DNA of 64,000 nucleotides from a virus. Position numbers and translations under genes: made by a program. Positions 4,891 through 37,552 of the stretch are shown here, piece after piece; the first letter of the stretch is position 1; each line of letters starts with the position of its first letter. The notes under the pieces are model-generated. The model was not told where the DNA came from and did no database searches. It saw only the letters and a program-made list of their open reading frames with translations. The stretch spans positions 129,190 to 193,189 of IMG/VR virus record IMGVR_UViG_3300042566_001780. One strand, 5' to 3'.

Positions 4891-6015
4891 ATGGCAAATG
4901 AAAAAGTCAAAAAAGTCAGTGTTGTTATTGGCCGCTTTTCTCCATTCCACAATGGACACAAGTACATTCTGGAAACTGTTGCCAAGCAATCTCATAAAGT
5001 CATTGTTCTGATTGGGTCTTCTTTCCAATCGCGTTCATTGAAAAACCCGTTCACTTTTGCTGAACGTCAATCTGTTATCGAAGCTTGGGCCAAAGATAAC
5101 GAGATTGAAAACACCTACATTTATCCGATTCGCGACTATCCCTACAATGATGCGCAATGGATCAAATCTATCCAAGAAGCAGTGTCTTATGCTACGTTGC
5201 TCGACAATCGCCCTCTCGAAATCCATTTGACTGGGTGCGATAAAGATTCCTCTACTTGGTATCTCCATGCTTTCCCACAGTGGAAGACTCATTTCCTGTC
5301 GGAATACACTGGCCAGGATTTGAAGACTAACGCTACACTGGTTCGAGAAATTCTTTTTTCTGGCGATCCAATGTCTCATATTGCGCCTATGGTGCCAACT
5401 CAAACTCTTGACTTTATTTCCAAGTTCAAACGAACTGCTGAATTTGAAAATCTGAAGCAGGAATATGAAATCAACCGCAAATATAAGGCGGCGTGGTCGG
5501 TAGCTCCTTATGCTCCGACCTTTAACACTGCTGATGCAGTAGTGATTCAATCTGGGCATGTTCTTGTCGTAGAGCGTGGAGCAATGCCGGGTAAAGGTCT
5601 TTGGGCATTTCCTGGTGGATTCATAAATCAAAATGAGCGTATTCAGGATGCTGCAATTCGCGAGTTGATTGAAGAAACTGGTATTTGCTTGGCTGAAGGA
5701 AAAAGGAAGCATGAACTAACGAAAAACATCCTTCAAGGCTCAATCCGAGCAAAAGAGATTTTTGATCATCCTACTCGATCTGAACGTGGCCGCACGATTA
5801 CTGTGGCATATTTGTTCAGGCTCGACGATACAAAGCCGCTTCCTCAAGTATCTGGTCAATACATTCCAGAATATGAAAGTCGTGGCCAACAGATTGTAGA
5901 AACTGCCAATGCATTTTGGCTGCCTATCAATGATGCTCTGCAACAAACTGAAAAATGGTTTGAAGATCACTGGAGTATTTTGGCATGGGCCACTGCAATT
6001 AAAGATTCTCGTTAA
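4891..6015 (+). CDS. natV: bifunctional NMN adenylyltransferase / Nudix ADP-ribose pyrophosphatase (NadM/NatV-like)
   Basis: N-terminal GRFSPFHNGH (H/TxGH nucleotidyltransferase motif); C-terminal Nudix box GGFINQNERIQDAAIRELIEETGI. Confidence 0.8.
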   Translation: MANEKVKKVSVVIGRFSPFHNGHKYILETVAKQSHKVIVLIGSSFQSRSLKNPFTFAERQSVIEAWAKDNEIENTYIYPIRDYPYNDAQWIKSIQEAVSYATLLDNRPLEIHLTGCDKDSSTWYLHAFPQWKTHFLSEYTGQDLKTNATLVREILFSGDPMSHIAPMVPTQTLDFISKFKRTAEFENLKQEYEINRKYKAAWSVAPYAPTFNTADAVVIQSGHVLVVERGAMPGKGLWAFPGGFINQNERIQDAAIRELIEETGICLAEGKRKHELTKNILQGSIRAKEIFDHPTRSERGRTITVAYLFRLDDTKPLPQVSGQYIPEYESRGQQIVETANAFWLPINDALQQTEKWFEDHWSILAWATAIKDSR

Positions 6016-7869: not shown

Positions 7870-8769
7870 ATGGGACAAGGTCGCTGGACATCTGATAGTT
7901 TTACAACTTACGCATCCACCACCAATTATCGTGCAATGAGCCGTGATGCTGTTTTCAGCAAATCTGTTCAGGCTGAACTGAAGACTGAATCTATCAAGGT
8001 TCGTGAATCTCGTGACTCTGCTGATAGCCCCAATTCGACTCCAATTATCCTCGGTCTGGATGTGACAGGCTCGATGGGTGAATATGCTGAGCGCATTGCC
8101 AAGGATGAACTGCCGAAGCTGATGAATGCAATTTTGGAACAGTCTCCTGTTGCTGATCCGCATCTGATGTTTATGGCTATTGACGATGTGCATGCATACA
8201 GTCAAGTGCCGCTGCAGGTGTCTCAATTTGAAGCCGACATTCGAATTCTGGAACAGCTTCGCAAGATTGTTCTGGTTGGCGGTGGCGGTGGCAACAAGTC
8301 TGAGTCTTACGACTTGGCATGGTACTGTGCTGGTATGAAGACTTCGATCGACTCTTTCGAGAAGCGTGGTGAAAAAGGTTTCTTGTTTACCTTTGGTGAT
8401 GAAGAAGCCCCTTACGAAACTTTGTCGATCAACGAGCAGACTCAAGTGTTTGGCGCTGGACAATATATTCCTATGCAGCCTCGAGAAATCCTGGATGCTG
8501 CAAAAAAGATGTATAATGTCTTTCACATCGTTATTGAACAAGGAAGTTATGCTCGAAGCCGATTCGATTCGGTGAAGAAAACATGGACTGATTTGCTTGG
8601 TAATAATGTTCTGTTCCTGAAAGATTTTCGAAATCTGTCGGAACTGGTAACAAGTACTATTCGAATTGCAAAAGGCGAAGACATGAGTCAAGTCATTCAC
8701 AATTCGTCTATTCCTCAAGAATTGAAGTACGCTTACCAAAATGCGTACGCATCGATGGAAACTGCGTGA
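7870..8769 (+). CDS. von Willebrand factor A (vWA)-like domain protein
   Basis: LGLDVTGSMG (MIDAS-like DxTxS), LVGGGGG, FLFTFGDEEAP beta-strand pattern. Confidence 0.5.
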   Translation: MGQGRWTSDSFTTYASTTNYRAMSRDAVFSKSVQAELKTESIKVRESRDSADSPNSTPIILGLDVTGSMGEYAERIAKDELPKLMNAILEQSPVADPHLMFMAIDDVHAYSQVPLQVSQFEADIRILEQLRKIVLVGGGGGNKSESYDLAWYCAGMKTSIDSFEKRGEKGFLFTFGDEEAPYETLSINEQTQVFGAGQYIPMQPREILDAAKKMYNVFHIVIEQGSYARSRFDSVKKTWTDLLGNNVLFLKDFRNLSELVTSTIRIAKGEDMSQVIHNSSIPQELKYAYQNAYASMETA

Positions 8770-8770
8770 A

Positions 8771-10066
8771 ATGAACCACATAGTTGTTGGCTCTGGCTAC
8801 GGTGATGAAGGCAAAGGATTGATGACCGATTATTTGGTCCGTCAATCCAATGCTAAAAACGTCGTTCGGTTTAATGGTGGTGCTCAAGCGGGCCATACTG
8901 TCCAAACTGATCATCGCCGTTATGTATTTGGACACTTGTCTGCAGGTACGTTTGCCGGAGCCAACACTATTCTGACTCGAGATTTCCTAATCAATCCTCG
9001 TGCATTGGTCAAGGAAATCCAGGATATGGAGGGCATTGGCCCCTCTTGTTATCCTGAAATCAAAGCGCATCGTAGTTGCCGAGTTACAACCATTTTCGAT
9101 ATTGCTATCAATGCAGTGTTGGAAATTTCTCGTGGATCTAGTGCTCACGGCTCTTGCGGGATGGGTATCAATGAGACTGTAGTTCGAAATGATAACCCGC
9201 TGCTTTTTGGAACTCGTTTGTATGATGTCAAGCAAATGAGTGTCAAACAACTTGCAGAAAAACTGAAAACCATTCATGATAAATGGGTACCAATTCGCCT
9301 GAAAGAGCATGGCATTACGATTGGTTCACTCGAGAGCATGAATGACAATTTTGCAAATATTCTTTGCAAAGAAATCAACTACATCCAAGAAGCACGGTTG
9401 ATGCTTGATGCATTGTCTGAAATTTCATATGATGATCAATCTGCGCTGATCGGTAATACGGTTTTTGAGGGTGCTCAGGGTCTTGGGCTTGACGAAGAAT
9501 TTGGACATTTTCCACATGTGACCCGGTCAAAAACTGGATCTGTGTGGGCATTCGATTATTTGGATGATTATTTCTTTGGTCAATATGTAGGCAGCTTGGT
9601 TTACGGACGATCTGGCACGTATTGGCTTGAAAATGTAGAAGTAGTATATGTCACCAGGGCGTATGCTACTCGTCACGGTAATGGACCGCTGTCTGAAGCT
9701 GGTGGAAATATTGGTGATGGGTCAAATGTTTATGATTTGACTAACAAACCAAATCCATTTCAAGGATCACTTCGATTTGCTCCATTGAATTTGCAATTAC
9801 TTCGAGATAACATTCAAAAAGATATTGCTCGAACTGATAGAAGTTTGCGGAAAAATGGAAACGCTCCACAACACACATACCAGAAAGTGATTGCACTCAC
9901 CTGTATGGATCAACTTGGCAATTATGTCAATGTGATTGATGTTAACGGTGTTATTCGCCCAGTCCTCTCGTCTGATCTTCCACAAATGATTGAGGAACAG
10001 GTTGGACTTAGAGTAAAATACATTAGTCATGGGCCAAAAGCCTCTGACATCAAAAAAGTTTTCTAA
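8771..10066 (+). CDS. adenylosuccinate synthetase (PurA)-family enzyme (PurA-like or PurZ-like)
   Basis: GSGYGDEGKG P-loop, RFNGGAQAGHTV, FEGAQGLGLD, all collinear with PurA motifs GDEGKGK / GGHNAGHT / FEGAQGTLLD; start moved to ATG 8771 after upstream stop. Confidence 0.75.
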   Translation: MNHIVVGSGYGDEGKGLMTDYLVRQSNAKNVVRFNGGAQAGHTVQTDHRRYVFGHLSAGTFAGANTILTRDFLINPRALVKEIQDMEGIGPSCYPEIKAHRSCRVTTIFDIAINAVLEISRGSSAHGSCGMGINETVVRNDNPLLFGTRLYDVKQMSVKQLAEKLKTIHDKWVPIRLKEHGITIGSLESMNDNFANILCKEINYIQEARLMLDALSEISYDDQSALIGNTVFEGAQGLGLDEEFGHFPHVTRSKTGSVWAFDYLDDYFFGQYVGSLVYGRSGTYWLENVEVVYVTRAYATRHGNGPLSEAGGNIGDGSNVYDLTNKPNPFQGSLRFAPLNLQLLRDNIQKDIARTDRSLRKNGNAPQHTYQKVIALTCMDQLGNYVNVIDVNGVIRPVLSSDLPQMIEEQVGLRVKYISHGPKASDIKKVF

Positions 10067-10156: not shown

Positions 10157-11548
10157 ATGGAACAACTTAGCTACAACCCTATCCTCGACGTCGATTCGTA
10201 CAAAGCTGCACACCAGTTTTCGTACCCAAAGAACGTCACCGGCATGTTCTCTTATATTGAGGCACGCACCAAGAATGATGTGATGATTCCGTTTGGACTG
10301 TCGATGTTCTTGCAAAAGTACATGTCAATCCAAATAACGAAGGCTTATATCGATGAAGCTGAAGAATTCTTCAAGCTGCACGGTGAACCATTTTCTCGTG
10401 AACCCTGGGAGCACATTGTCAACGAATATGACGGCTTTATGCCTCTCACTATTCGTGCAGTACCTGAAGGAACTCCGGTGAAAAGCTCTAATGCAATTGT
10501 CACTGTTCAATGTGATGATCCTGCAGTGCACTGGCTGTCTTCTTACGTCGAAACCAAAATCCAACGCGCAATTTGGTATCCTACTACGATTGCTTCAATG
10601 GACTATGCAATCAAGCGGGTCTTTAAGGAATTCTATGAAGCTACTGGGGCAGATATGAATTTGCTCCCGTTTGCCCTCCATGATTTTGGTGCGCGTGGTG
10701 TCGCAAGCTACGAGCAATCTGAAATTGGCGGTGCAGCACACATGGTCAACTTCATGGGTTCTGACACCGTGGCAGGTATTCGTGCTGCAAACTTCTATTA
10801 CAGTGAGCAAATGGCCGGGTTTTCTGTGCCGGCTACTGAGCACAGTGTGGAATGCTCGTTTGGTGAAGAAAATGAAATCGGTTATCTGGAACACGTCATT
10901 GACAATCTGGCCAAGCCTGGTGGTATTGTGTCTATTGTGATTGACGGCTATGATGTTTATCGTGCTGCGCAAACTCTTTGCACTACGCTGAAAGACAAGA
11001 TCATTGCAAGCGGCGTCAAGGTCGTATTCCGCCCTGATAGTGGGGATATGCAAGTGGTGGTGCCTCGTATCCTTGAATTGCAGGCCGCTACTTTTGGTTA
11101 TGAAGTCAATGAAAAAGGCTTCAAGAAGATTAAATACGTTGGCATTATCCAAGGTGATGGCGTTGATCACTTGTCCATTCGTTCGCTGCTTGGCAAAATG
11201 AAGGTGATGGGTTTCTCTGCTGATAACGTGGTTTTTGGATCTGGTGGTGCACTGCTCCAAAAGGTCAATCGAGACGTTTTCAAATTCGCCCAAAAAGCTT
11301 CTGCTGTTCGGATTGATGGGAAGTGGGTCGGTATCAGTAAAAATCCAATCACCGATCCCGGAAAGCGAAGCAAGGAAGGCGTTTTGACTCTTGTTAAGAG
11401 TCGACTGACTGGTGAATACTCTACGGCTCGAATTGATGATAAGCGTCTTGATTCTGAGTTTGAAGACCAAATGGAACTTGTCTACTACAATGGCAAGATC
11501 ATGAATTCTCCAACTTTGTCTGAAATTCGAGAACGCTGCAAGCTGTAA
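10157..11548 (+). CDS. nadV: nicotinamide phosphoribosyltransferase (NAMPT/NadV)
   Basis: N-terminal NPILDVDSYKAAHQ signature, 463 aa, RBS aaggagc. Confidence 0.85.
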   Translation: MEQLSYNPILDVDSYKAAHQFSYPKNVTGMFSYIEARTKNDVMIPFGLSMFLQKYMSIQITKAYIDEAEEFFKLHGEPFSREPWEHIVNEYDGFMPLTIRAVPEGTPVKSSNAIVTVQCDDPAVHWLSSYVETKIQRAIWYPTTIASMDYAIKRVFKEFYEATGADMNLLPFALHDFGARGVASYEQSEIGGAAHMVNFMGSDTVAGIRAANFYYSEQMAGFSVPATEHSVECSFGEENEIGYLEHVIDNLAKPGGIVSIVIDGYDVYRAAQTLCTTLKDKIIASGVKVVFRPDSGDMQVVVPRILELQAATFGYEVNEKGFKKIKYVGIIQGDGVDHLSIRSLLGKMKVMGFSADNVVFGSGGALLQKVNRDVFKFAQKASAVRIDGKWVGISKNPITDPGKRSKEGVLTLVKSRLTGEYSTARIDDKRLDSEFEDQMELVYYNGKIMNSPTLSEIRERCKL

Positions 11549-12726: not shown

Positions 12727-12803
12727 CGCCACTTAGCTCAGTTGGTCAGAGCAAGAGCTTCTAACACTCCAGGTCGCGGGTTCGAGCCCCGCAGTGGCGA
12801 CCA
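12727..12803 (+). tRNA. solitary tRNA-like gene, anticodon loop reads uuCUAac (possible CUA amber-suppressor) with weak anticodon stem; encoded CCA
   Basis: 7-bp acceptor cgccact/agtggcg, D arm gctc-agttggtca-gagc, T arm gcggg-ttcgagc-cccgc, CCA end; anticodon stem agagc/actcc has only 3 pairs. Confidence 0.55.
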
Positions 12804-32957: not shown

Positions 32958-33614
32958 ATGAAAAAGTATCCGCGAACTGTTCACCTCCCTTGGTCCCTTG
33001 GAACCGAGAGCGATGACAAGATGTTGCAAAATGTAGATCATTTTGTTGGCAAGCAGATTGTCGTCACTATCAAAATGGATGGTGAGAACTGTACTGCCCA
33101 CGCAAATGGTCACATTCATGCTCGTTCTTTGGATAGTGTCTCGGGTCCTGATCGTGATTGGGTTAAAAAGTTTCTGCTTGAAAATGTGTGTTACAATCTT
33201 CCTGAGAACTGGCGTGTTTGCGGTGAAAATCTTTTTGCTAAGCACTCTATCTTCTACGAAGATCTGAAATCCTACTTTATGGGTTTTAGCATTTGGAATA
33301 ACGAAAACATCTGTCTTTCGTGGGATGACACTCTTGCATGGTTCGAGTTGCTGAATGTGACTCCAGTTGAAGTTGTCTATGAGGGTATTTTTGATGTTGA
33401 TGCATTGAAGAAGCTTGAAAAGACTATGGATTTTTCTAAGCAGGAAGGATATGTCATTCGACTAAAAGATTCATTCCACTATGATGAATTTGGCACCAAT
33501 GTAGCAAAGTTTGTAAGAGCAAATCACGTGCAGACTGATCAACACTGGCGCCATTCTGCAATTGTTCCCAATGTCCTTAAGGATGAAAATGAAAAAGAAA
33601 CGTGCAATAGTTAA
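32958..33614 (+). CDS. ATP-dependent RNA/DNA ligase-like nucleotidyltransferase (small Rnl-type)
   Basis: TIKMDGENC (motif I KxDG), EGYVIRLKD (motif IV), KFVRANHV (motif V-like). Confidence 0.55.
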   Translation: MKKYPRTVHLPWSLGTESDDKMLQNVDHFVGKQIVVTIKMDGENCTAHANGHIHARSLDSVSGPDRDWVKKFLLENVCYNLPENWRVCGENLFAKHSIFYEDLKSYFMGFSIWNNENICLSWDDTLAWFELLNVTPVEVVYEGIFDVDALKKLEKTMDFSKQEGYVIRLKDSFHYDEFGTNVAKFVRANHVQTDQHWRHSAIVPNVLKDENEKETCNS

Positions 33615-35634: not shown

Positions 35635-35666
35635 CTGGGAACCAAAAAGGTTCCCAGTTTTGTTTT
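35635..35666 (+). terminator. terminator ctgggaacc/ggttcccag + ttttgtttt inside the long intergenic region
   Basis: 9-bp stem + T-run. Confidence 0.55.
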
Positions 35667-35855: not shown

Positions 35856-35940
35856 CCATCAGATGCCAAACTGGTTATGGCACTCGACTTTTAATCGAGC
35901 GCGTTACGCTTTGTGGGTTCGAGTCCCACCTGATGGACCA
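35856..35940 (+). tRNA. tRNA-Lys(UUU)-like, 85 nt with long (13-nt) variable arm; encoded CCA
   Basis: Acceptor ccatcag/ctgatgg, D gcca/tggc, anticodon stem ctcga/tcgag loop cuUUUaa, extra arm gcg-tta-cgc, T gtggg-ttcgagt-cccac. Confidence 0.6.
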
Positions 35941-35948
35941 AAGTTTTT

Positions 35949-36024
35949 GCCTGTTTAGCTCAGTTGAGAGAGCAAAATGTTGATAACGTTTAGGTCGCTG
36001 GTTTGAGTCCAGCAACAGGCACCA
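35949..36024 (+). tRNA. tRNA-Ile(GAU)
   Basis: Acceptor gcctgtt/aacaggc, anticodon loop ttGATaa, T gctgg-tttgagt-ccagc, CCA. Confidence 0.8.
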
Positions 36025-36030
36025 AAAAAT

Positions 36031-36115
36031 GTCGCGTGTTGGCTGCTGGTAACGGCCCTCACCCTTTCAAGGTGACGTCTTTATGACTGCGGTTCGATTC
36101 CGCCACGCGACGCCA
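36031..36115 (+). tRNA. tRNA-Glu(UUC)-like, 85 nt with long variable arm; encoded CCA
   Basis: Acceptor gtcgcgt/acgcgac, anticodon stem tcacc/ggtga loop cuUUCaa, extra arm gtc-tttat-gac, T loop ttcgatt. Confidence 0.55.
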
Positions 36116-36121
36116 AGTTAT

Positions 36122-36193
36122 TGGGGGATTGTCATCTGGTGATGACATTGCGCTTTGACCGCAAGAAGGTGGGTTCGATCCCCACTCCCCTTG
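36122..36193 (+). tRNA. tRNA-Gln(UUG), no encoded CCA, U1-U72 mismatch
   Basis: D gtca/tgac, anticodon stem ttgcg/cgcaa loop cuUUGac, T gtggg-ttcgatc-cccac. Confidence 0.6.
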
Positions 36194-36203
36194 CACTTGA
36201 CAT

Positions 36204-36241: not shown

Positions 36242-36910
36242 ATGCAAAAAACACAAAAGAAATATCATTATATTTATAAAACAACTTGTCTAATTACTAA
36301 AAAATTTTATATAGGCATGCACTCAACTGATAACTTAAATGATGGTTATCTTGGAAGTGGAAAGATTCTTAGTTATTCTATTGCCAAATATGGTAAGGCC
36401 AATCATGTTTGCGAAATTTTAGAATATCTACCTAATAGAGAAGCACTAAACGATCGTGAAAAAGAAATAGTAAATGAGGATTTATTAAATCATCCATTAA
36501 ATATTAATCTTGTATATGGTGGTTCTGGTGGAACTCATGGAAAAGAGGCCGAGGTATGGGCAAGACCGGGGTATAAAGAAAGAGTAGCTATTTCTTTATC
36601 TAATGCGATGAAAAAACGTTGGTTACATATAGAATATGCAAATAAAATTAGTTTGCATAGGAAAATACTTTGGACTAATGATGAATATCGAAACAATATG
36701 CTTGTTGTTTTGCGATCGGCTTTTTTGGGAAAACAACACACTGCAAAAAGCAAAGCATTAATTGGTGAAAAAAATTCAATAAGTCAATTAGGATCAAAGA
36801 ATTCCCAGTTTGGAACTTGCTGGATTACTAATGGAATAAAACCAATTAAAATAAAGAAAGAGTGTCTTGACGAATATTTGGTGAAGGGGTATCGTTTAGG
36901 AAGAAAATAA
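36242..36910 (+). CDS. GIY-YIG homing endonuclease (NUMOD3-containing)
   Basis: YHYIYKTTCLITKKFYIGMHST GIY-YIG motif; HTAKSKALIGEKN NUMOD3. Confidence 0.8.
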   Translation: MQKTQKKYHYIYKTTCLITKKFYIGMHSTDNLNDGYLGSGKILSYSIAKYGKANHVCEILEYLPNREALNDREKEIVNEDLLNHPLNINLVYGGSGGTHGKEAEVWARPGYKERVAISLSNAMKKRWLHIEYANKISLHRKILWTNDEYRNNMLVVLRSAFLGKQHTAKSKALIGEKNSISQLGSKNSQFGTCWITNGIKPIKIKKECLDEYLVKGYRLGRK

Positions 36911-36935: not shown

Positions 36936-37008
36936 TGGCCGGTAGCTCAGTTGGTAGAGTGTCGGGTTGTTACCCCGGGTGTCGCGAGTTCGAATCTTGC
37001 CCGGCCAG
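36936..37008 (+). tRNA. tRNA-Asn(GUU), no encoded CCA
   Basis: Acceptor tggccgg/ccggcca, D gctc/gagt, anticodon loop ttGTTac, T gcgag-ttcgaat-cttgc. Confidence 0.7.
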
Positions 37009-37021
37009 CAAATAGCATTAT

Positions 37022-37099
37022 AGGGGAGTAGCTCAATTGGCAGAGCGCTGGTCTCCAAAACCAGAGGCTGTTCCGGTTCAAATCCGACCTCCCCTGCCA
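37022..37099 (+). tRNA. tRNA-Trp(CCA), encoded CCA
   Basis: Acceptor aggggag/ctcccct (as in bacterial tRNA-Trp), anticodon stem ctggt/accag loop cuCCAaa. Confidence 0.75.
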
Positions 37100-37154
37100 A
37101 TAATTATAACTTCGATCATCAAAATTTGGTGATGATGGAGATTTTAAAAACAAT

Positions 37155-37230
37155 CTGCACTTAGCTGTTCTGGTGAAAGCATGGCGCTGAAAACGCCGGG
37201 AGACTGGTTCGATCCCAGTAGTGCAGGCCA
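37155..37230 (+). tRNA. tRNA-Phe(GAA), encoded CCA
   Basis: Acceptor ctgcact/agtgcag, anticodon stem tggcg/cgccg loop ctGAAaa, T actgg-ttcgatc-ccagt. Confidence 0.75.
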
Positions 37231-37237
37231 AAATTAT

Positions 37238-37311
37238 GGTGTTGGTAAGATAGTGGTAGTCCGCCTGTCTGTGAAACAGGAAGCGAGGGTTCGATTCCCC
37301 CCTTCACCCCA
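37238..37311 (+). tRNA. probable tRNA-His(GUG) with G-1:C73 and atypical acceptor/T stems
   Basis: Anticodon stem cctgt/acagg loop cuGUGaa; extra 5' G pairing C73 then CCA; two U-U mismatches in acceptor stem. Confidence 0.5.
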
Positions 37312-37318
37312 AAATAAT

Positions 37319-37394
37319 GCCAATGAAGCAATCTGGTGATTGCACCTGACTGTCGATCAGGTTCAGGCGAGTTCGATCCTCGTCATTGGCGCCA
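37319..37394 (+). tRNA. tRNA-Asp(GUC), encoded CCA
   Basis: Acceptor gccaatg/cattggc, D gcaa/ttgc, anticodon loop ctGTCga, T gcgag-ttcgatc-ctcgt. Confidence 0.8.
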
Positions 37395-37399
37395 TTCAT

Positions 37400-37474
37400 G
37401 GTTCATTGGCCGAGAGGCGAGGCAACTTCTTCATGCGGAGTCCTACAGTAGTTCGAATCTACTATGAACCACCA
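37400..37474 (+). tRNA. tRNA-Met/Ile2(CAU), encoded CCA
   Basis: Acceptor ggttcat/atgaacc, anticodon stem acttc/ggagt loop ttCATgc, T agtag-ttcgaat-ctact. Confidence 0.7.
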
Positions 37475-37478
37475 AAAA

Positions 37479-37552
37479 GCCCCTGTAGTTCAATGAAAGA
37501 ACACACCTTTGGTACGGGTGAGAAGACAGTTTGATTCTGTCCTTGGGCACCA
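37479..37552 (+). tRNA. tRNA-Thr(GGU), encoded CCA, two acceptor-stem mismatches
   Basis: D gttc/gaac, anticodon stem cacct/gggtg loop ttGGTac, T gacag-tttgatt-ctgtc. Confidence 0.6.

What the first reader, a model, noticed from the sequence alone, without database searches (positions are those of the whole stretch)
35856..36115. Two 85-nt tRNAs with type-II-like long variable arms but Lys (UUU) and Glu (UUC) anticodons
Both genes fold with solid acceptor, D, anticodon and T arms plus an extra 12-13-nt hairpin arm (gcg-tta-cgc and gtc-tttat-gac). Long variable arms are normally restricted to Leu, Ser, Tyr and Sec tRNAs in bacteria. The anticodon loops read cuUUUaa and cuUUCaa unambiguously within 5-bp stems. 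Possible explanations are chimeric or remodelled tRNAs, tRNAs that evade host anticodon nucleases (PrrC and RloC target Lys and Glu tRNAs), or decoys. The presence of an RNA ligase gene (32958-33614) in the same region is suggestive.
Basis: seen in the sequence. Interest (0 to 1): 0.6.

Follow-up and report, generated by a model that had tools for sequence, protein, structure and literature searches.

The report
Phage Lys and Glu tRNAs with extra arm
A large uncultured phage encodes a lysine tRNA and a glutamate tRNA that each carry an extra hairpin arm normally found only on leucine, serine and tyrosine tRNAs; both belong to conserved, apparently undescribed families in uncultured phages and may be reshaped to escape host enzymes that cut tRNAs.

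Summary
ARAGORN calls tRNA-Lys(UUU) at 35856-35940 and tRNA-Glu(UUC) at 36031-36115. Each is 85 nt, encodes CCA and has a 13-nt variable region with a 3-bp hairpin.

It falls below Rfam's general tRNA threshold and resembles tRNA-Sec only weakly.

Neither gene is a one-off. The Glu gene belongs to a family of 25 distinct sequences, and the Lys gene to a sub-family of about 10. Compensatory changes support every helix of the Glu fold, including the extra arm. In the Lys sub-family the extra-arm stems differ in sequence yet still pair.

Roughly 3-5% of sampled viral Lys(UUU) and Glu(UUC) genes are long-armed. Such genes are nearly absent from cultured phages and rare in cellular genomes.

The anticodons and bodies point to normal Lys and Glu charging. 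AAA and GAA are the phage's commonest codons, and the long form is the only UUU tRNA in several near-complete phage tRNA sets.

My best, untested explanation is that the reshaped body blocks tRNA-cutting defence nucleases. The proposed link to the RNA ligase is not supported.

The parts
35856..35940 (+). tRNA-Lys(UUU), 85 nt, 7/5 cloverleaf plus variable-arm hairpin. Acceptor 35856-35862 / 35930-35936; A8; D arm 35865-35881; anticodon arm 35883-35899; A73 at 35937; encoded CCA 35938-35940.
   Evidence: ARAGORN. Rfam RF00005 at 54.2 bits. Lowest-energy fold, z -2.5. In the 9-sequence sub-family alignment, 100% of cells pair and 11 of 22 pairs change on both sides.
35890..35892 (+). Anticodon TTT (reads AAA, and AAG by wobble) within the loop CTTTTAA.
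   Evidence: AAA makes up 4.08% of codons in the window.
35900..35912 (+). Variable region of the Lys tRNA: C + GCG-TTA-CGC + TTT, i.e. 1 unpaired base 5', a 3-bp stem, and 3 unpaired bases 3'. This is the layout typical of phage tRNA-Tyr.
   Evidence: Layout analysis. Relatives keep the hairpin using different stems: GGCA/TGCC, GAT/ATC, GAGA/TCTC, GGC/GCC.
35949..36024 (+). tRNA-Ile(GAU), normal length, lying between the two long-arm genes.
   Evidence: ARAGORN. Rfam at 63.7 bits.
36031..36115 (+). tRNA-Glu(UUC), 85 nt, 8/4 geometry. Acceptor 36031-36038 / 36104-36111 (8 bp); U8-U9 linker; D arm 36041-36057 (GGCT/GGCC with a U13.G22 wobble); anticodon arm 36059-36075; T arm 36089-36103 (4-bp stem); G73 at 36112; encoded CCA 36113-36115.
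   Evidence: ARAGORN. Lowest-energy fold equals the centroid, z -3.3. Below the RF00005 threshold. tRNA-Sec model 38.3 bits, below its threshold of 47. Family of 25 sequences: acceptor fully paired (8/8) in 24, T stem fully paired (4/4) in 24. In the 7-sequence alignment, 18 of 25 pairs change on both sides.
36066..36068 (+). Anticodon TTC (reads GAA, and GAG by wobble) within the loop CTTTCAA.
   Evidence: GAA makes up 4.19% of codons in the window.
36076..36088 (+). Variable region of the Glu tRNA: C + GTC-TTTAT-GAC + T, i.e. 1 unpaired base on each side of a 3-bp stem.
   Evidence: L606 has identical acceptor, D and anticodon arms but the stem GCCC/GGGC. There are 10 distinct stems across the family.
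36120..36194 (+). tRNA-Gln(UUG), normal length, last gene of the four-tRNA array (spacers 4-8 nt).
   Evidence: ARAGORN. Rfam at 42.6 bits, 36122-36193.
35635..35657 (.). Strong bidirectional terminator-like hairpin that closes the upstream unit, about 200 nt before the array.
   Evidence: 9-bp stem, 6 G-C pairs, T run.
36242..36910 (+). GIY-YIG (Seg-like) homing endonuclease gene between the two tRNA clusters. Listed as context, not as part of the tRNAs.
   Evidence: PHROG 314, E 2e-35. DNA similarity to T4 segA. Homologues in 26 of 250 viral tRNA loci.
36936..37552 (+). Second cluster of seven normal-length tRNAs: Asn, Trp, Phe, His, Asp, Met, Thr.

Best explanation
Both genes are functional phage tRNAs. 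They belong to conserved viral families in which a Lys(UUU) or Glu(UUC) decoder has gained a class-II-style variable-arm hairpin. The Glu family has also shifted one base pair from the T stem to the acceptor stem (8/4).

Shown here: the folds, their conservation through compensatory changes, the strict pairing of each body with its anticodon, the viral distribution, and the frequent presence of a normal-length twin.

Inferred: the tRNAs are still charged with Lys and Glu, because LysRS and GluRS read mainly the anticodon loop, which is intact, and they then read the phage's most-used codons, AAA and GAA.

Inferred, more tentatively: the extra arm is selected because it changes the tRNA's shape beside the 3' strand of the anticodon stem and the elbow. 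Host or rival-phage nucleases that recognise the tRNA body (PARIS AriB, OLD or Septu-type Toprim enzymes, PrrC/RloC-type anticodon nucleases) would then no longer dock or cut, while the synthetase, EF-Tu and the ribosome, which already handle class II tRNAs, still accept the tRNA.
For: - **Genuine tRNAs:** ARAGORN, Rfam and energy folds agree.
- **Glu family covariation:** 98.9% of cells pair and 18 of 25 pairs change on both sides, including 3 of 4 variable-arm pairs; 0 of 500 shuffles reach the covariation score. Across 25 distinct members there are 10 different variable-arm stems.
- **Lys sub-family covariation:** 100% of cells pair and 11 of 22 pairs change on both sides. The variable-arm stems differ in sequence but still pair.
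- **Lys identity:** the UUU anticodon and A73 are both present, the complete published Lys identity set (PMC9976931).
- **Glu identity:** U34, U35, C36, A37, G1-C72, U2-A71 and U13.G22 are present. The D-stem signature GNCU/GGNC occurs in 43% of phage Glu tRNAs but in 0 of 215 Ser and 0 of 280 Leu.
- **Fixed anticodon:** an anticodon-free scan for the Glu body found 6 loci, all with UUC.
- **Sole AAA decoder:** in phage arrays of 17-33 tRNAs, the only UUU tRNA is the long form, usually next to a normal Lys(CUU).
- **Codon use:** AAA is 4.08% and GAA 4.19% of codons in the window, and each is the preferred synonym.
- **Fit with evasion:** AriB cuts tRNA-Lys(UUU) at 40|41 and needs contacts outside the anticodon stem-loop. 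Septu cuts the variable loop of tRNA-Tyr (abstract of PMC13096335).
- **Twins:** 17 of 30 arrays with the 8/4 Glu also hold a normal Glu(UUC), directly adjacent in 9.
- **Uneven spread:** long arms cluster on certain anticodons, including the AriB targets Asn(GUU) and Thr(UGU).
- **Kept motif:** long Lys(UUU) retains the AAUC motif in 48 of 74 cases, against 12 of 37 for short phage Lys(UUU). This fits a body-level rather than a sequence-level escape route.
Against: - No nuclease, host or expression data exist for this phage, so the evasion step is inference only.
- PrrC is known to cut isolated anticodon stem-loops (my recollection, not checked here), so an added arm might not protect against it.
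- Long arms are also common on Ile(UAU), Cys, Trp and Met, which are not known PARIS targets. The overlap with known targets is therefore partial.
- In E. coli, U11-A24 and the absence of nucleotide 47 are major GluRS determinants. Both are lost here, so charging by an E. coli-like GluRS could be poor.
- The 48/74 versus 12/37 comparison ignores how the sequences are related to one another.
Confidence: 0.42

Rival explanations
1. Ordinary codon-supply tRNAs whose extra arm is only structural. Phage tRNAs evolve fast, and here the core is already unusual (A8 in the Lys gene, an 8/4 branch in the Glu gene). The hairpin would stabilise folding and have no role in conflict with the host.
For: The tRNAs match the phage's preferred A-ending codons. 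The variable-arm loops and stems vary in sequence, so only the shape is conserved. Variable-arm length seems loose in phage tRNAs generally: many phage Leu tRNAs have short variable loops (only 13 of 34 Leu(CAA) are long), and the 8/4 geometry appears in several isotypes.
Against: This does not explain why a normal-length twin with the same anticodon is so often kept beside the long form. It does not explain why long arms cluster on certain anticodons and are absent from Phe, Asp, Arg(ACG) and Gly(GCC) in the biased set. It does not explain why the forms are so much more frequent in viral than in cellular DNA.
Confidence: 0.25
2. Mis-charging tRNAs. The class-II-like body would be read by a synthetase that ignores or tolerates the anticodon: SerRS for the 8/4 Glu gene (G73 plus a long arm, as in allo-tRNAs), and TyrRS or LeuRS for the Lys gene (A73, U35, an A15-U48 pair, a Tyr-type arm). 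The phage would then insert Ser, Tyr or Leu at GAA or AAA, as nematode nev-tRNAs do with Leu.
For: Window Glu: 8/4 branch, G73, G1-C72, and a Ser-like arm layout of one unpaired base on each side. Window Lys: A73 and U35 are the critical Tyr elements, and A73 with A15-U48 and G18G19 are Leu elements. Its arm layout equals that of phage Tyr. Long Lys bodies sit nearest class II tRNAs in 38 of 77 cases. A same-anticodon twin is what one would expect if the two copies carried different amino acids. Allo-tRNAs insert Ser or Ala in E. coli (PMC5389517).
Against: AAA and GAA together are about 8% of the phage's codons. The long form is the only UUU tRNA in near-complete arrays. The Glu-family discriminator is A in 14, U in 8 and G in 2 of 25, so G73 is not conserved. 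G2-C71, conserved in bacterial tRNA-Ser, is U2-A71 here. The D arm is Glu-type and never Ser-type. The arm stems are 2-4 bp, against 4-7 bp in phage Ser. The anticodon is fixed on each body, unlike allo-tRNAs. The full Lys identity set is present.
Confidence: 0.1
3. A non-translating decoy or special-purpose tRNA. The long-arm copy would act as a competitive inhibitor or sponge for a tRNA-targeting nuclease, or would supply Lys or Glu to a tRNA-dependent enzyme, while the normal twin or the host tRNA does the decoding.
For: The twin arrangement. The PARIS authors raise the possibility that over-expressed viral tRNAs inhibit AriB by competition. The Glu gene departs from major GluRS determinants.
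Against: The window holds no normal Lys(UUU) or Glu(UUC) gene. In several large arrays the long form is the only UUU tRNA. The encoded CCA, intact T loop, G18G19 and fully paired acceptor stems are what a translating tRNA needs.
Confidence: 0.1
4. An artefact: pseudogenes or over-calls by ARAGORN.
For: The Glu gene fails Rfam's tRNA threshold. One family member (L241/L593) has a broken acceptor stem. Some long calls in the survey look doubtful.
Against: Full pairing with compensatory changes across 25 and 9 homologues from independent contigs. Encoded CCA. Position inside a tight tRNA array.
Confidence: 0.02

Closest known systems
Allo-tRNAs and (8/4) tRNA-Ser / tRNA-His of bacteria and phages (Mukai et al. 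2017, PMC5389517)
   Same: The Glu gene has the 8/4 split of the 12-bp acceptor/T branch, a long variable arm and, in this copy, G73. It was picked up weakly by the tRNA-Sec model, which is how allo-tRNAs were first found. Phages were already known to use 8/4 for Ser and His.
   Different: Allo-tRNAs have a Sec-like long D stem with a tetraloop, a longer anticodon stem, G73 or U73, and many anticodons on one body (35 codons; Lys seen once). Here the D arm is 4 bp with a 9-nt loop and is Glu-type. The anticodon stem is 5 bp. The family discriminator is mostly A. The anticodon is always UUC. The variable stem is only 2-4 bp.
Nematode nev-tRNAs (class II tRNAs with Gly(CCC) or Ile(UAU) anticodons; PMC3333845, PMC4300185)
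   Same: A long variable arm on tRNAs whose anticodons belong to class I amino acids.
   Different: nev-tRNAs are Leu-type bodies charged with Leu in vitro, and they are eukaryotic. The genes here keep the cognate identity elements (UUU with A73; the Glu anticodon loop, acceptor pairs and U13.G22), and they are viral.
Nuclease-resistant phage tRNAs: T5 tRNA-Lys(UUU), Thr and Asn against PARIS AriB (PMC11464382, PMC12409363); the anticodon-loop mutation hypothesis (PMC10264068)
   Same: A phage-encoded copy of a tRNA that defence nucleases target. Lys(UUU) is the classic target. The proposed benefit is the same.
   Different: The known examples escape through point changes at or near the cut site (U39A and A41C in T5). 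Here the anticodon loop and U39-C40 are kept, and a whole helix is added instead. No resistance has been measured.
Bacterial tRNA-Tyr (class II)
   Same: The Lys gene shares A73, U35, a 13-nt variable region laid out as 1 unpaired base, a 3-bp stem and 3 unpaired bases, and strong similarity to a phage tRNA-Tyr (L166).
   Different: The anticodon is UUU, not GUA. The closest same-phage relative is not consistently Tyr, so descent from Tyr is unproven.

Membership tests
Canonical tRNA (Rfam RF00005) | Score at or above the gathering threshold of 29 bits with a 7/5 cloverleaf | tested here: met
   Lys gene: 54.2 bits, with the variable arm treated as an insertion.
Canonical tRNA (Rfam RF00005) | The same criterion, applied to the Glu gene | tested here: not met
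   Not listed at the gathering threshold. ARAGORN and the energy fold give an 8/4 structure.
tRNA-Sec (Rfam RF01852) | Score at or above 47 bits; UCA anticodon | tested here: not met
   38.3 bits; the anticodon is UUC.
Class II tRNA (Leu/Ser/Tyr type) | Variable region of 10 nt or more that forms a hairpin | tested here: met
   Both genes have 13 nt with a 3-bp stem. The hairpins are kept by compensatory change.
Class II tRNA (Leu/Ser/Tyr type) | Anticodon for Leu, Ser or Tyr | tested here: not met
   The anticodons are UUU and UUC.
Allo-tRNA (Mukai 2017) | 8/4 or 9/3 acceptor/T branch with a long variable arm | tested here: met
   The Glu gene is 8/4. In the family, 24 of 25 members have 8/8 acceptor pairs and 24 of 25 have 4/4 T-stem pairs. 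The eighth pair is G-C in 24 of 25, so covariation cannot speak for or against it.
Allo-tRNA (Mukai 2017) | Sec-like long D stem with a tetraloop, and a lengthened anticodon stem | tested here: not met
   The D stem is 4 bp with a 9-nt loop and the anticodon stem is 5 bp. Definition taken from PMC5389517.
Allo-tRNA (Mukai 2017) | G73 or U73 discriminator (Ser identity) | tested here: inconclusive
   The window copy has G73. Across the family the discriminator is A in 14, U in 8, G in 2 and C in 1.
Allo-tRNA (Mukai 2017) | One body type carrying many different anticodons | tested here: not met
   An anticodon-free scan found 6 of 6 with UUC. In the fetched DNA, 28 of 28 carry CTTTCAA.
tRNA-Lys (substrate of class II LysRS) | U34, U35, U36 plus A73 (PMC9976931) | tested here: met
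   The loop is CTTTTAA and A73 lies at 35937. Whether the extra arm is tolerated by LysRS cannot be tested here.
tRNA-Glu (substrate of E. coli-type GluRS) | U34, U35, C36, A37; G1-C72; U2-A71; U13-G22 | tested here: met
   All are present in the window copy. The GNCU/GGNC D stem is Glu-specific among phage tRNAs.
tRNA-Glu (substrate of E. coli-type GluRS) | U11-A24 pair and absence of nucleotide 47 (short variable loop) | tested here: not met
   Pair 11-24 is G-C in the window and A-U in most relatives. The variable region is 13 nt.
tRNA-Tyr (bacterial) | A73 and U35; long variable arm | tested here: met
   The Lys gene has A73, U35 and the 1 + 3 bp + 3 arm layout that is modal for phage Tyr.
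tRNA-Tyr (bacterial) | GUA anticodon (G34, A36) | tested here: not met
   The anticodon is UUU.
Nuclease-resistant phage tRNA (T5 tRNA-Lys type) | Demonstrated resistance to a defence tRNase, and rescue of infection | not testable with these tools
   Needs biochemistry or genetics. Sequence only: U39 and C40 match the E. coli site, and position 41 is G rather than A.

The most novel reading that the evidence does not exclude
The long-arm copies are not equivalent to their normal twins. The added arm, and the 8/4 branch of the Glu tRNA, would redirect them to a different synthetase (SerRS, TyrRS or LeuRS), so the phage deliberately inserts a second amino acid at AAA or GAA. Alternatively, the long-arm copies serve as dedicated non-ribosomal substrates or decoys. 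Either reading would make these a viral counterpart of nev-tRNAs and allo-tRNAs, with a programmed dual meaning for very common sense codons.
Probability: 0.1. Interest if true: 0.9.

Novelty: new variant of a known kind. Interest (0 to 1): 0.62.

Why it matters
The rule that long variable arms belong only to Leu, Ser, Tyr and Sec tRNAs in bacteria and their viruses is broken here, and not by a single oddity. Conserved, covarying families of Lys(UUU) and Glu(UUC) tRNAs break it, and so do long-arm Asn, Thr, Gln, Trp, Cys and Ile tRNAs seen in passing. All come from uncultured phages.

These genes are largely missing from cultured phages, and one of the two falls below Rfam's tRNA threshold, so Rfam-threshold annotation would miss it.

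If the arm blocks tRNA-cutting defence enzymes, this would be a new escape route: changing the shape of the tRNA rather than the bases at the cut site. It could be tested directly with existing PARIS, PrrC, OLD and Septu assays.

The tRNAs could also serve as natural scaffolds that keep anticodon-based identity on an altered body, which is of interest for tRNA engineering.

Tried and rejected
- **tRNA-Sec or allo-tRNA identity for the Glu gene.** Rejected on score, D-arm type, variable discriminator and fixed anticodon.
- **Descent of the Lys gene from tRNA-Tyr.** The arm geometry and one phage Tyr (L166) fit. However, nearest-neighbour classification has only about 70% accuracy, and same-phage comparisons do not consistently pick Tyr. 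Left open.
- **RNA ligase or repair module.** Not supported.
- **Stop-codon or sense-codon reassignment in the window.** TAG ends 7 of 64 ORFs with no long read-through, and AAA and GAA are the preferred, abundant codons.
- **Close relatives among cultured phages.** None for either gene; only partial hits to two uncultured phages of about 635 kb.
- **Literature.** Eight full-text searches found no description of long-arm Lys or Glu tRNAs in phages. Absence from that library does not prove the finding is new.
- **First alignment attempt.** It failed because I put gap characters in the input.
Full report
**1. Observation**

ARAGORN finds 12 tRNA genes in the window. They include tRNA-Lys(ttt) at 35856-35940 and tRNA-Glu(ttc) at 36031-36115, both 85 nt. 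These two, tRNA-Ile(GAU) and tRNA-Gln(UUG) form a tight array with 4-8 nt spacers. A strong terminator lies upstream at 35635-35657.

The Lys gene folds as a 7/5 cloverleaf with the loop CTTTTAA, A73 and an encoded CCA. Its 13-nt variable region is C-GCG-TTA-CGC-TTT. Rfam's tRNA model gives it 54.2 bits.

ARAGORN and the energy fold both give:
- an 8-bp acceptor stem;
- a 2-nt linker (U8-U9);
- a 4-bp D stem with a U13.G22 wobble;
- the loop CTTTCAA;
- a variable region C-GTC-TTTAT-GAC-T;
- a T stem of only 4 bp;
- G73 and an encoded CCA.

Its lowest-energy fold equals the centroid, at 39% of the ensemble and z -3.3. It misses Rfam's tRNA threshold. Its best match is tRNA-Sec at 38.3 bits, below that model's threshold of 47, with the anticodon loop placed as ARAGORN places it.

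**2. Setting**

The window comes from a large tailed phage. It encodes a tail sheath, an endolysin, NAD-salvage enzymes and a Seg-like GIY-YIG homing endonuclease that lies between two tRNA clusters. No cultured phage is close at the DNA level.

**3. The genes are not one-offs**

I scanned IMG/VR for an anticodon loop, then a spacer too long for a normal variable loop, then a T arm. ARAGORN validated 84 tRNA-Lys and 29 tRNA-Glu of 82 nt or more in those loci.

*The Glu family.* Sub-family patterns, plus the one metagenome scan, gave 25 distinct relatives of the window's Glu gene.
- 24 have all 8 acceptor pairs, and 24 have all 4 T-stem pairs.
- The eighth pair is G-C in 24 of 25.
- The variable region is always C, then a 2-4 bp stem, then U, with 10 different stem sequences.
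- L606 shares the window's acceptor, D and anticodon arms exactly, yet its variable stem is GCCC/GGGC instead of GTC/GAC.
- On a 7-sequence alignment, 98.9% of cells pair and 18 of 25 pairs change on both sides. This includes 3 of the 4 variable-arm pairs. No shuffle (0 of 500) reaches the covariation score, and sliding the partners collapses pairing to about 45%.

*The Lys sub-family.* The window's Lys gene belongs to a sub-family of about 10 sequences.
- They share A8, a covarying 4-bp D stem, the T arm GTGGGTTCGA.TCCCAC, A73 and CCA.
- Pairing is 100%, and 11 of 22 pairs change on both sides.
- The variable stems differ (GCG/CGC, GGCA/TGCC, GAT/ATC, GAGA/TCTC, GGC/GCC).

**4. Distribution**

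I repeated the viral scan with a spacer range that admits normal and long forms alike. Roughly 3-4% of sampled viral Lys(UUU) genes and 4-5% of sampled Glu(UUC) genes are long-armed. These figures come from capped scans, so they are rough.

The same long-only Lys pattern was run on 185,579 bacterial and archaeal genomes. Only 5 of 120 hit loci held a validated long Lys, and two of those sit in tRNA clusters that suggest prophage. In the viral collection the figure was about 60%.

GenBank phages lack these forms. The most abundant long-Lys type has no match, and the window's sub-family gives only partial hits to two uncultured phages of about 635 kb. Eight literature searches found no description of them.

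**5. Which amino acid?**

Published identity rules (PMC9976931):
- Lys: the anticodon triplet plus A73.
- Tyr: A73 plus U35.
- Leu: A73 plus tertiary elements such as A15-U48 and G18G19.
- Glu: U34, U35, C36 and A37 are strong; G1-C72 and U2-A71 are weak; U11-A24, U13-G22:A46 and the absence of nucleotide 47 are major.
- Ser: the long arm and G73, with G1-C72 and G2-C71 conserved.

*The Lys gene.* It has the complete Lys set. It also has parts of the Tyr and Leu sets. Its arm layout (1 unpaired base, 3-bp stem, 3 unpaired bases) is the one typical of phage tRNA-Tyr. Leu is mostly (0,1), and Ser is (1,1) with 4-7 bp stems. Long Lys bodies often classify nearest to class II tRNAs: 38 of 77, against 14 nearest to Lys, with a classifier that is about 70% accurate.

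*The Glu gene.* It keeps the anticodon loop, G1-C72, U2-A71 and U13.G22. It lacks U11-A24 and the short variable loop.
- Its D-stem signature GNCU/GGNC occurs in 43% of phage Glu tRNAs, 13% of Gln, 0 of 215 Ser and 0 of 280 Leu.
- The family discriminator is A in 14, U in 8 and G in 2 of 25. GluRS does not need position 73, but Ser identity does.
- An anticodon-free scan for this body found 6 loci, all with UUC.

*Context.* In phage arrays of 17-33 tRNAs, the only UUU tRNA is the long one, usually next to a normal Lys(CUU). In the window, AAA (4.08%) and GAA (4.19%) are among the commonest codons, and each is the preferred synonym. Cognate charging is therefore the economical reading. It is inferred, not shown.

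**6. Why add an arm?**

The data argue for selection on shape.
- The hairpins are conserved only as structures.
- A long-arm tRNA frequently sits beside a normal tRNA with the same anticodon. Of 30 arrays with the 8/4 Glu, 17 also hold a normal Glu(UUC), directly adjacent in 9. Similar twins exist for Lys(UUU), Asn(GUU), Gln(UUG), Ile(GAU) and Trp.
- Long arms are unevenly spread over anticodons. In the less biased sample: Ile(UAU) 9/36, Asn 7/76, Cys 4/47, Trp 3/49, Thr(UGU) 3/58, and 3.1% of class I tRNAs overall.

Published work shows that defence nucleases read the tRNA body.
- PARIS AriB cuts Lys(UUU), Thr(UGU), Asn(GUU) and Thr(CGU) between positions 40 and 41, and needs contacts outside the anticodon stem-loop (PMC12409363).
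- Septu cuts the variable loop of tRNA-Tyr, and a Seg homing endonuclease amplifies phage anti-defence tRNA loci (abstract of PMC13096335).

An arm projecting from positions 44-48 lies right beside the AriB cut site. Long Lys(UUU) genes keep the AAUC motif more often than short phage Lys(UUU) genes do (48 of 74 against 12 of 37). That fits escape by shape rather than by point mutation, but the comparison is not corrected for relatedness.

I therefore favour a shape change that blocks tRNA-targeting nucleases (confidence about 0.4). The rivals are a purely structural role (0.25), mis-charging (0.1), a decoy or non-ribosomal role (0.1) and artefact (0.02).

**7. The RNA ligase**

The 218-aa PF09414 protein at 32958-33614 is real. 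However:
- it has no kinase-phosphatase partner nearby;
- it has no solved relative detectable by sequence;
- homologues occur in only 2 of 250 viral loci with such tRNAs.

It gives no support to a repair link.

**8. Comparison with known families**

The Glu gene works like an 8/4 tRNA of the kind Mukai et al. described. It fails their allo-tRNA definition on D-arm type, anticodon-stem length, discriminator conservation and anticodon diversity.

Both genes resemble nematode nev-tRNAs only in pairing a long arm with a class I anticodon.

They resemble nuclease-resistant T5 tRNAs in proposed purpose but not in means.

I class them as a new variant of a known kind.

**9. Limits**

- ARAGORN was the only tRNA caller available, and no tRNAscan-SE isotype models could be run.
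- All collection scans were capped or pattern-biased.
- The host is unknown.
- There are no expression, charging or cleavage data.

Noticed in passing
Viral loci, e.g. L036, L073, L085, L114, L033, L250, L021, L045, L380, L567; also L614 Ile(gat), 97 nt: Phage tRNA-Ile(UAU) genes often carry a 20-25 nt variable arm (12/21 in the biased sample, 9/36 in the less biased one). The hairpin loop has a conserved sequence, CAGATTA or TAGATTA, closed by covarying G-C pairs. Read as a 7-nt anticodon-type loop, it shows G-A-U, the Ile anticodon, in the middle, which suggests a possible IleRS-recognition mimic. This contrasts with the sequence-variable Lys and Glu arms.
   Followed up: partly
window 12727-12803 (+): An amber-suppressor-type tRNA with anticodon CUA (ARAGORN labels it 'Pyl'; Rfam tRNA 59.7 bits). 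TAG ends only 7 of 64 ORFs in the window, and reading through those stops adds at most 29 codons, so there is no clear sign of TAG recoding here.
   Followed up: partly
L250, L242, L035, L249, L103 (normal-length Lys tRNAs): The normal-length Lys(CUU) and Lys(UUU) genes in the same phage arrays are also non-canonical. They have A8-A9, C1-G72, and T loops reading ATCATTA or ATCGTTA in place of TTCGAAT. Phage tRNA-Lys seems to be diversified in more than one structural way.
   Followed up: no
Viral loci: Many phage tRNAs with Leu anticodons have a short 5-6 nt variable loop: only 13/34 Leu(CAA), 26/42 Leu(UAG) and 35/44 Leu(UAA) are long. The link between class II shape and isotype is therefore loose in both directions in phages.
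   Followed up: no
L591, L594, L597, L599, L600, L610, L611, L614 and others: Arrays holding the 8/4 Glu often also hold a 92-95 nt tRNA-Asn(GUU) with a long variable arm beside a normal Asn. Some also have long Gln(UUG), Trp, Ile(GAU), Lys(CUU) and Lys(UUU). This looks like a second, long-arm set of decoders in one phage lineage.
   Followed up: partly
L241 2017-2100, and L593 (same 310,728-bp contig): A member of the 8/4 Glu family whose 3' acceptor strand (TACGCGAT) cannot pair with its 5' strand (GTTCCGTG). It is probably a decayed or chimeric copy, and ARAGORN does not call it.
   Followed up: yes
window 36242-36910 (+): A Seg-like GIY-YIG homing endonuclease sits between the two tRNA clusters, behind a promoter-like TTGACA-18-TAGAGT. 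Homologues lie in 26 of 250 viral tRNA loci. A 2026 paper reports that T-even SegB amplifies anti-defence tRNA loci.
   Followed up: partly
window 8741-10066 (+), 4891-6015 (+), 10157-11548 (+): A homologue of PHROG 1211 (annotated there as '2-aminooxy adenylosuccinate synthetase', E 2e-49) lies next to NAD-salvage genes: an NMN adenylyltransferase/Nudix fusion and a nicotinamide phosphoribosyltransferase. The first may point to modified-base DNA metabolism.
   Followed up: no
L033 (Gly tcc, 84 nt); L466 (Lys ttt, 91 nt); one search list: Other 8/4 tRNAs occur in phage contigs. ARAGORN draws Ser, Pro, Gly, Ile, Ala, Thr, Tyr and Lys this way, including an 8/4 Gly(UCC) and an 8/4 Lys(UUU) that both carry long variable arms.
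   Followed up: no
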